DNA of 64,000 nt from Eledone cirrhosa (taxonomy: Eukaryota). The stretch is taken from the NCBI GenBank assembly GCA_964016885.1, contig CAXHJY010001204.1, positions 1 to 64,000 of the forward strand. Reading direction: 5' to 3'. Below the pieces are notes generated by a model. It did no database searches and had not been told where the DNA came from. It worked only from the letters and a program-made list of their open reading frames with translations. The position numbers were made by a program, and so were the translations under genes. This document shows, piece after piece, positions 51,451-52,746 of this stretch (positions are counted from its first letter, which is position 1; every line of letters starts with the position of its first letter).

Positions 51451-51644
51451 GGCACTGAACTCTGCCCTCTTCCTTCTTTTACAAAAGAGTTCATCACCCA
51501 AACCTTTGATACGAAAATCAATCAAATGTACTAAAAATATAATCCATGGCATATATCTATATAATTATATATATATATTATATATAAGTAGGTAAGTAAC
51601 AGCCGTACTAAGAGTGAGAAATGAAATTTCGTTTCATTTTTTCC

Positions 51645-51678
<34 letters not shown>

Positions 51679-51682
<4 letters not shown>

Positions 51683-52345
51683 AACATTTTCGCTCTACAT
51701 GGCTGAATACAATAAATGTAATCTGAGTTTTTCGAATATTAAAAATAACATTCGATTCGTTTGCAATTATACAAACAAGCCTCAATTTTATAGCCATGTC
51801 AGTTCTGTTCGCATGCCAACACAAGGGCAAGAATGAAGGGTTCATTCTACTGACATGGCTATAAAATTGAGGCTTGTTTGTATAATTGCAAACGAATCGA
51901 ATGTTATTATTAATATTCGAAAAATTCAGATTACATTTATTGTATTAAGCCATGTAGAGCGAAATTTTTCTTTTTTTATTTGAATTTGGCAAAGCCGGCC
52001 AATTATCGCTCGTATACAGGAAACTGACTGGCCAGTCTGCTGATATGCAAATCTGGCTGATCAGTGGATCTGCTAATATGCAAATCAGGACAATCAGTCA
52101 CTGTGTATTTTTGAAAGTAGCATATATTTTCACTAGCTCTGAAAGTTTGGCAGGTGAACAGTACTGATGAAGGGTGATACCCAGAAACATTAGTGTCTGC
52201 AGTTCTGTTCGCATGCAAACACAAGAGCAAGAATGAAGTGTTCATTCTACTGACATGGCTATAAAATGGAGGCCTGTTTGTATAATTGCAAACGAACCGA
52301 ATGTTATTATTAATATTCGAAAAACTCAGATTACATTTATATATA
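51679..52345 (+). mobile_element. Retrozyme-like/Penelope-like non-autonomous element: inverted arm + 400-nt unit + repeat of unit start
   Basis: Inverted arms 51679-51802/51850-51973, direct repeat 51801-51940/52201-52340, hammerhead at the junction, (TA)n on both sides. Confidence 0.75.
52156..52205 (+). ncRNA. Type I hammerhead ribozyme, predicted cleavage after C52197
   Basis: GAACAGTA-CTGATGA-AGGGT GAT ACCCA-GAAA-CA TTAG TG-TC-TGCAGTTC. 7/8-bp stem I, 4-bp stem II, 3-bp stem III, GUC triplet. Confidence 0.8.
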
Positions 52346-52379
52346 TATAAGTACACACACACATTATATATATATACAG

Positions 52380-52572
52380 ACTCTCCATCCCAACTCCACT
52401 TTTGAAAAGCAGAAGGACTGCGAAACCGGTAAAGGAACCAAATAAATATATATATATTTTTAAAAATAAGACTCCAGTTGCATTTTCGATTTCATCTTTT
52501 TTTCTTTATACTTTCACTCGTGTAGGACACCTCGGTTATTTTCATTTTGTAAAAAAAACCTCACTTTCTAAT
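52380..52572 (+). mobile_element. Penelope-like module (family H4) with U3-A8 variant minimal hammerhead
   Basis: CTT-TTGAAAA-GCAG AAGGA CTGC-GAAA-CCGG-TA-AAG. Homologous to 57780-57965. Confidence 0.6.
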
Positions 52573-52602
52573 ATATATATATATATATACATATCTATCT
52601 AT

Positions 52603-52746
52603 CTAAGGCGGGTAAAATTCACGAGATCCATGGACGAGTTCTCTCCAGCGGTCTCTGTCCCTCATTATCGCTGCCATGTCCTTCGTCTCCAACAGACCAG
52701 TGTCTGTCCTTAGGGCATCAACATACGTTAACCTTAGTCTTCCTCT
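52603..52746 (-). mobile_element. Very short 3' end of the RTE-type LINE
   Basis: [45 protein letters not shown]-rich flanks. Confidence 0.92.

What the first reader, a model, noticed from the sequence alone, without database searches (positions are those of the whole stretch)
51679..52345. Retrozyme-like element recording its own mechanism: copy starts at the hammerhead cleavage site and folds back
Seen: a complete type I hammerhead (52156-52205, GUC, cut after 52197). The sequence just 3' of the cut (CAGTTCTGTTCGCATGC..) also occurs exactly 400 nt upstream. There it begins at 51800, within 2 nt of the equivalent cleavage position and without the ribozyme's 5' half. It is preceded by a 124-bp inverted copy joined through CAG/CTG microhomology. 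The unit has no convincing ORF, contains two ATGCAAAT octamers (52045, 52078) and is bounded by (TA)n. Established: metazoan non-LTR retrozymes are short hammerhead-bearing repeats processed into monomeric and circular RNAs, and Penelope-like elements make inverted 5' ends. Inference: a self-cleaved ~400-nt-unit RNA was reverse transcribed to its cleaved 5' end, the cDNA snapped back and self-primed, and the product integrated in (TA)n. I do not know of this family being described.
Basis: partly seen in the sequence, partly recalled or inferred. Interest (0 to 1): 0.85.

Follow-up and report, generated by a model that had tools for sequence, protein, structure and literature searches.

The report
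Ribozyme repeat copied from both ends
This is one old copy of a 400-base, protein-free repeat that carries a predicted self-cutting RNA motif and occurs thousands of times in an animal genome; the shapes of its many insertions suggest that a borrowed Penelope-type enzyme likely copied RNA from both sides of a DNA cut and joined the two copies, often stopping near the predicted cutting site.

Summary
The geometry is real. The element is a new family of a known kind: a non-LTR retrozyme, that is a non-autonomous Penelope-like element (406-nt unit, type I hammerhead, at least 2,135 exact motif hits). This copy's hammerhead lacks 7 nt of stem I and is probably crippled. Across 174 loci, outer ends sit at two fixed sites about 35 nt apart in (TA)n, the Penelope 'tail'. 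Inner ends are enriched in the 25 nt after the predicted cut (67 of 227 against 13 of 160 upstream), but 152 of 260 arms read through the cut and the zone is also a long helix, so cleavage is supported, not shown. Snap-back is not supported: in 32 of 71 two-armed insertions neither arm contains the other, arm lengths are independent, and one insertion joins two different ribozyme families. Best reading: two target-primed cDNAs joined by microhomology. No autonomous partner and no RNA data were found. The scan already reported the same two-armed layout for other retrozyme families of this genome.

The parts
51648..51679 (.). (TA)16, left target microsatellite
51679..51803 (-). Inverted arm, unit positions c52-c176 (c1 = first base after the predicted cut); its outer end carries the Penelope-type tail
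51800..51803 (.). 4-nt microhomology joining the inner (5') ends of the two arms
51800..52340 (+). Forward arm, 541 nt = 1.35 units, from c3 to c143 of the next unit; tail-less outer end
51941..51975 (+). Tail segment (about c144-c181) between the two inferred initiation sites; present at the outer end of the inverted arm only
   Evidence: PMC11167929
52036..52098 (+). 33-nt tandem module with ATGCAAAT octamers at 52045 and 52078; copy number varies in the family; promoter role untested
52154..52212 (+). Type I hammerhead motif: core 52164-52197, predicted cut after 52197, A.A at the base of stem II, short self-complementary helix III; this copy lacks 7 nt of stem I
52338..52375 (.). (TA)n/(CA)n, right target microsatellite
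51557..51650 (+). Neighbour, separate insertion: 3' piece of a second hammerhead repeat family ('family B')
52376..52605 (+). Neighbour, separate insertion: terminal-repeat piece of an RT + GIY-YIG Penelope-like element (91-93% to L152, L154, L163); no sequence shared with the unit

Best explanation
This is one copy of an abundant, protein-free 406-nt repeat with a hammerhead motif, likely mobilised by a Penelope-like reverse transcriptase/endonuclease that would cut (TA)n, prime one cDNA from each target strand and join the two by microhomology, using RNA that was likely cut at the hammerhead in a part of the cases. Shown: copy number, (TA)n targets, two fixed outer ends (c143/148 and about c181), head-to-head two-armed layout, 1-4 nt microhomology, independence of the arms, excess of inner ends in c1-25, precise read-through of the cut site. 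Inferred: (1) tandem loci are transcribed, perhaps from the octamer module; (2) the hammerhead cuts inefficiently, probably as a dimer, giving a pool of cut and uncut (multimeric or circular) RNA; (3) a Penelope-like protein in trans nicks both strands and starts internally at two U-rich sites about 35 nt apart, one for each strand; (4) each cDNA stops at random or on nearing a cut 5' end; (5) the two cDNA 3' ends anneal and are filled in. For the window copy: one cDNA began at c143, read through one uncut hammerhead and stopped 2 nt short of the next cut site; the other began at about c181 and stopped at c52.
For: Outer ends: c143 (36), c181 (29), c148 (27) of 157 arms in set 1; c143 (30), c148 (18), c165 (15), c181 (7) of 137 in set 2; 229 of 260 such ends have (TA)3 within 30 nt. 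107 of 174 loci are two-armed; 69 of 71 scorable ones have one tailed and one tail-less end. Neither arm contains the other in 20 of 43 and 12 of 28. Inner ends uncorrelated, no excess of short loops. Microhomology of 2 nt or more in 41 of 85 insert-free junctions against about 18% expected. L004 joins this family to family B head to head; 8 of 87 inverted pairs differ at two or more subfamily sites. Inner ends: 39 of 113 against 5 of 74 in set 1, with the strongest step of a whole-length scan exactly at the cut; 16 of 94 against 5 of 78 in set 2; second lap 12 of 20 against 3 of 8; pooled Fisher p=1e-7. Stop rate 1.2% per nt in c1-25 against 0.44% in other predicted helices and 0.36% elsewhere. 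Helix III pairs as a dimer (-8.8 kcal/mol), not as a monomer hairpin. An anole Penelope protein cuts and extends both strands, is predicted to be a dimer and starts internally at two sites that bound the tail (PMC11167929). The genome holds RT + GIY-YIG elements with open frames up to about 950 aa.
Against: c1-25 is also the 3' strand of the longest predicted helix (extended stem I), so stalling predicts the same edge. Ends exactly at c1 number 7, tied with c9, c16 and c21, and c1-4 adds little beyond c1-25 in a regression. In set 2 the edge is blunter: 3 against 2 within 6 nt, four ends at -1 to -8, and the strongest step lay elsewhere (an alignment artefact at the 33-nt module). A second hot zone as strong lies in the U-rich c160-181 (1.4% per nt). 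The predicted minimum-energy fold closes the catalytic core, and 10.1/11.1 is A.A. In vitro, hammerhead mutants did not affect Penelope insertion and no RNA reads ended at the cut (PMC11167929). About 90% of arm pairs share a subfamily, which one template would also give. No autonomous partner among 65 Penelope-like loci.
Confidence: 0.55

Rival explanations
1. Same two-ended Penelope-type insertion, but all templates are uncut (circles or multimers). The excess of inner ends in c1-25 comes from the enzyme stalling in the extended stem I helix, whose 3' strand begins at the cut site by construction.
For: c1-25 pairs with c345-372 in linear and circular folds. No single peak at c1. 152 of 260 arms at risk pass the cut (74 of 143; 78 of 117), 117 of 121 with exact spacing. 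Uncut RNA is the substrate in vitro (PMC11167929).
Against: Other predicted helices raise the stop rate only about 1.2-fold; the c1-25 term stays after a structure term (log-likelihood gain 10). 16 ends in c1-6 against 2 in the 6 nt upstream. Arms are short (longest 692 nt in the two samples; 900 nt in L019), and 6 of 47 tandem pairs differ at two or more subfamily sites, which one monomeric circle would not give.
Confidence: 0.28
2. One reading: one cDNA runs to a cleaved 5' end, snaps back, primes on itself and the hairpin product is integrated. A variant is the published self-priming on an antisense template, or a free hairpin resolved by the endonuclease.
For: The window's inverted arm lies within its forward arm and differs from the first repeat at 2 of 90 sites, from the second at 4. 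39 of 71 insertions are compatible. A few junctions sit in natural hairpins (L050, L074, L099). Self-priming was proposed for Penelope inversions (PMC3846280). Later loss of a unit or re-copying of a composite could hide containment; an antisense or free-hairpin variant escapes the containment test.
Against: 32 of 71 not contained; tail on either arm at random; loops of median 135 nt with no excess of short ones; cross-family and cross-subfamily arm pairs. Repeated junctions are few (4 pairs among the junctions), so re-copied composites are rare.
Confidence: 0.12
3. A DNA-level repeat (satellite or replication template-switch product), or a mere fragment of a longer coding element, with the hammerhead incidental.
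For: No RNA evidence here; no autonomous partner found.
Against: Dispersed copies with fixed 3' ends and variable 5' ends; precise 400-406-nt periodicity; hammerhead core 92-99% conserved per column; monomer fold z = -5.7 and -6.9; no sampled arm runs on into a shared coding sequence.
Confidence: 0.03

Closest known systems
Metazoan non-LTR retrozymes (Cervera and de la Pena 2020, PMC7229834; Li, Clavereau and Pollet 2026, bioRxiv 10.64898/2026.07.22.740005)
   Same: Non-coding unit of a few hundred nt, low G+C, type I hammerhead, tandem periodicity, many copies, coexistence with Penelope-like elements, proposed mobilisation by them.
   Different: Here copies are mostly dispersed, under two units per arm and two-armed; no expression, cleavage or circle was tested; in the parts read, those papers do not map insertion ends against the cut site.
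Canonical EN+ Penelope-like elements (Craig et al. 2021, PMC8557442; Arkhipova et al. 2013, PMC3846280; Cervera and de la Pena 2014, PMC4209133)
   Same: Partial tandems, inverted 5'-truncated copy, 30-40 bp tail at one end only, microsatellite targets, microhomology junctions, hammerhead with an unpaired base at the 5' end of stem II and a dimer-type helix III.
   Different: No ORF; no autonomous element sharing the repeat was found; the data favour two cDNAs over the self-priming proposed in PMC3846280.
Poseidon element of Anolis carolinensis in vitro (Frangieh et al. 2024, PMC11167929)
   Same: Two internal initiation sites downstream of the hammerhead that bound the tail; AT-rich targets; both strands extended.
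   Different: There hammerhead cleavage was dispensable and no reads ended at the cut; here inner ends are enriched up to the predicted cut.
LINE-1 twin priming (recalled, not from a call)
   Same: Both target strands prime cDNAs that are joined by microhomology, giving a 5' inversion.
   Different: In twin priming the two cDNAs cover different parts of one RNA; here they overlap and sometimes come from different families.

Membership tests
Non-LTR retrozyme | Type I hammerhead in each unit | tested here: met
   Core conserved at 92-99% per column over 110-140 aligned segments; this copy has a 7-nt stem I deletion; no Rfam match
Non-LTR retrozyme | Short non-coding unit, repeated head to tail | tested here: met
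   406-nt unit, partial tandems up to 900 nt; no credible ORF
Non-LTR retrozyme | Two consecutive complete hammerheads (the 'active' criterion of Li et al.) | tested here: inconclusive
   Not met by the window copy (one hammerhead); met by other copies such as L020 and L030
Non-LTR retrozyme | Self-cleavage; monomeric linear and circular RNA in tissues | not testable with these tools
   Needs bench work; no RNA holder listed
Penelope-like element (non-autonomous) | Partial tandem with inverted 5'-truncated copy | tested here: met
   107 of 174 loci two-armed
Penelope-like element (non-autonomous) | 30-40 bp tail at one end only | tested here: met
   69 of 71
Penelope-like element (non-autonomous) | Bias for microsatellite / AT-rich targets | tested here: met
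   229 of 260 outer ends
Penelope-like element (non-autonomous) | Terminal repeat shared with an autonomous RT + GIY-YIG element | tested here: inconclusive
   None among 65 loci out of 10,597 GIY-YIG candidates
Penelope-like element (autonomous) | RT + GIY-YIG ORF | tested here: not met
Plant LTR retrozyme | Type III hammerhead in LTRs, PBS/PPT, 4-bp target duplication | tested here: not met
   Type I topology, no LTR layout

The most novel reading that the evidence does not exclude
The family is a fossil record that settles two open steps of Penelope/retrozyme transposition: the head-to-head inversion is made by a dimeric enzyme priming two separate RNAs from the two strands of one cut (even RNAs of different families), and hammerhead-cleaved RNA serves as template in vivo, against the published self-priming model and the in vitro finding that cleavage is dispensable.
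Probability: 0.4. Interest if true: 0.7.

Novelty: new member of a known kind. Interest (0 to 1): 0.45.

Why it matters
How Penelope-like elements form their inverted ends, and what their hammerheads are for, are stated as open in PMC8557442 and PMC11167929. A short family with thousands of insertions lets both be tested from genome sequence: the arm statistics argue against self-priming and for two-ended priming, and the inner ends tie the copying process to the predicted cut site. It also supports the idea that animal retrozymes ride on Penelope machinery. The element itself is an ordinary, roughly 3% diverged member of a known class, and this copy's ribozyme is damaged.

Tried and rejected
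Rfam scan: no hammerhead family among 111 matches, which were mostly microsatellite-driven miRNA models. RNA runs: no RNA holder listed; this says nothing on expression. Contigs of three coded runs (one study, kind not on record) hold the family with the same variable sites but no listed piece spans this insertion. Autonomous partner: 30 GIY-YIG loci, 20 longer stretches and 15 loci of the element joined to L065 share no terminal repeat with the unit; family copies seen there are separate insertions. A recalled Pfam accession was not in the library. The first 30 loci were left out of the end statistics because the query favoured full units. The pile of ends at c238 is an artefact of the variable 33-nt module; c230-300 was left out. 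A SINE-bearing subfamily was considered; variable 5' junctions favour repeated SINE insertion at one site. A direct parent-daughter link between the window copy and L059 was not supported (no shared flanks, different variants). A clade name for the autonomous elements was not tested. PMC5850863 was not held. The search by sequence in earlier findings gave nothing.

Full report
Observation. The hammerhead core lies at 52164-52197 and the octamers at 52045 and 52078. Rfam listed no hammerhead match. A loose hammerhead pattern has 7 hits in the window against 0.48 expected, so such motifs are common here. The window is a 64-kb contig of a 3.0-Gb genome; its repeats look like those of an octopus to me, which is recalled and comes from no call.

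Family. The unit has 3,287 first-look candidates; two non-overlapping exact patterns give 1,350 and 785 hits. I number the 406-nt family unit from c1, the first base after the predicted cut, using natural locus L003 as reference. The core is conserved at 92-99% per column. The family has a long stem I with a bulge; the window copy lacks 7 nt of it (2 of 93 motifs) and folds out of register when the core is held open. Position 10.1/11.1 is A.A; an unpaired base at the 5' end of stem II is described for Penelope hammerheads (PMC4209133, first quarter of the text read). Helix III forms only as a dimer in prediction, and the minimum-energy fold closes the core. The unit folds far better than shuffles (z -5.7 and -6.9; 40 shuffles). 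Copies differ by about 6% pairwise at non-polymorphic sites, so the family is not young.

Samples. Set 1: 95 of the first 100 listed hits, all on contig C1, as 90 loci, 3 duplicates dropped, 87 kept; L056 and L057 share flanks and were both counted. Set 2, an older subfamily: 94 of the first 100 listed hits as 90 loci, 3 overlaps with set 1 dropped, 87 kept. Pieces behind a SINE (12 and 4) and arms with outer ends outside c100-190 (10 of 157 and 14 of 137) were left out of inner-end counts. The 30 loci were not used for end counts.

Outer ends. They cluster at c143, c148 and about c181 (92 of 157 in set 1), with c165 added in set 2; 229 of 260 run into (TA)n. 107 of 174 loci are head-to-head pairs, and 69 of 71 scorable pairs have one long and one short outer end. 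This is the Penelope tail (PMC8557442, passages; PMC3846280, passages), which in vitro marks two internal initiation sites of a protein that cuts and extends both strands (PMC11167929, main text read, supplements not). The window copy fits: tail on the inverted arm, none on the forward arm.

Inner ends and the cut site. In set 1, 39 of 113 arms stop in c1-25 against 5 of 74 in the 25 nt upstream, and a scan of all positions puts the strongest step exactly at c1. Set 2 agrees more weakly: 16 of 94 against 5 of 78, with four ends at -1 to -8 and its strongest step at an artefact of the 33-nt module. In the second lap 12 of 20 stop in c1-25 against 3 of 8. Pooled: 67 of 227 against 13 of 160, p=1e-7. 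Against a simple reading: 152 of 260 arms pass the cut, 117 of 121 with exact spacing; c1 has 7 ends, as do c9, c16 and c21; c1-25 is the 3' strand of the longest predicted helix; and the U-rich c160-181 is as hot. Other helices raise the stop rate only from 0.36 to 0.44% per nt against 1.2% in c1-25. So cut templates are likely in part, but stalling is not excluded.

How the inversion forms. Snap-back from a target-primed cDNA needs one arm to lie within the other. That fails in 20 of 43 and 12 of 28 pairs. The tail is on the 5'-longer arm in 32 of 69, the two inner ends are uncorrelated, and short loops are not in excess (22 observed against 16.5 expected at 30 nt or less, p=0.07). Microhomology of 2 nt or more is enriched (41 of 85; about 18% expected); 22 of 107 junctions carry inserted letters. 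L004 joins an arm of this family head to head with an arm of another hammerhead family; L037, L084 and L114 abut another repeat and L065 a 5'-truncated Penelope-like frame in the same way, less clearly. 8 of 87 inverted pairs and 6 of 47 tandem pairs differ at two or more subfamily sites, against 57% of random pairs: most pairs come from one lineage, some do not. L059 has the window's junction with arms c52-176 and c3-143 and unrelated flanks. The window copy itself is compatible with both models. Caveats: later loss of a unit, re-copying of composites, or a free hairpin intermediate could evade the containment test.

Partner. The genome has 10,597 GIY-YIG candidates and RT + GIY-YIG frames. 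None of 65 loci examined shares the repeat. The window's right neighbour is a terminal piece of one such element.

Prior knowledge and novelty. Animal non-LTR retrozymes and their proposed dependence on Penelope-like elements are in print (PMC7229834, passages and Discussion; bioRxiv 10.64898/2026.07.22.740005, parts 1-3 of 5, supplements not seen). Self-priming is the published proposal for the inversions (PMC3846280). Six searches listed no description of this family nor a mapping of insertion ends against the hammerhead cut; an octopus repeat annotation does not mention ribozymes in its main text (PMC13282606, passages; supplements and repeat libraries not seen, and they may hold the family). 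The library lacks most subscription papers. Earlier notes of this scan describe 310-, 445-, 467- and 595-nt families in the same genome with the same two-armed layout, several favouring circles; my reading was recorded before that look-up, and I did not test those families. This family differs in short arms and a stop zone at the cut.

Verdict. Real; a new member of a known kind. Interest 0.45, carried by the mechanistic tests and not by the element.

Noticed in passing
L004:822-1370: Head-to-head insertion whose two arms belong to different hammerhead repeat families, joined by a short microhomology; direct sign of two templates in one event.
   Followed up: partly
L002, L010, L016, L017, L034, L042, L047, L057, L070, L108, L211, L236, L237, L272 (unit c109-126): The host SINE sits at the same ATT-rich site of the unit in at least 14 of 204 loci, with a fixed 3' junction and variable 5' junctions: a likely insertion hot spot.
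   Followed up: partly
window 51557-51650 and 52376-52605: Pieces of a second hammerhead family and of an autonomous Penelope-like terminal repeat flank the finding in the same (TA)n cluster.
   Followed up: yes
window 23953, 32876, 44292, 49982, 56922: Further hammerhead-core pattern hits in the window, probably other Penelope or retrozyme families.
   Followed up: no
L003:941-1450 (family B): Family B also has an ATGCAAAT octamer upstream of its hammerhead (3 of 5 motifs); most other hammerhead families seen here have none.
   Followed up: partly
L065:1083-2620: A family arm is joined head to head to a 5'-truncated, decayed Penelope-like frame; telomere-like repeats lie near the other end. 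That element has its own, different hammerhead.
   Followed up: partly
L118:1062-1629; L008:1386-1951: Consecutive units within one arm carry different subfamily variants, pointing to mixed multimers or template changes (L118 seen only).
   Followed up: partly
unit c160-181 (window 51957-51975): A second hot zone of inner ends in the U-rich tract, as strong as the zone at the cut; unexplained.
   Followed up: no
L157, L158: Autonomous Penelope-like elements in this genome show the same head-to-head layout of two truncated frames.
   Followed up: no
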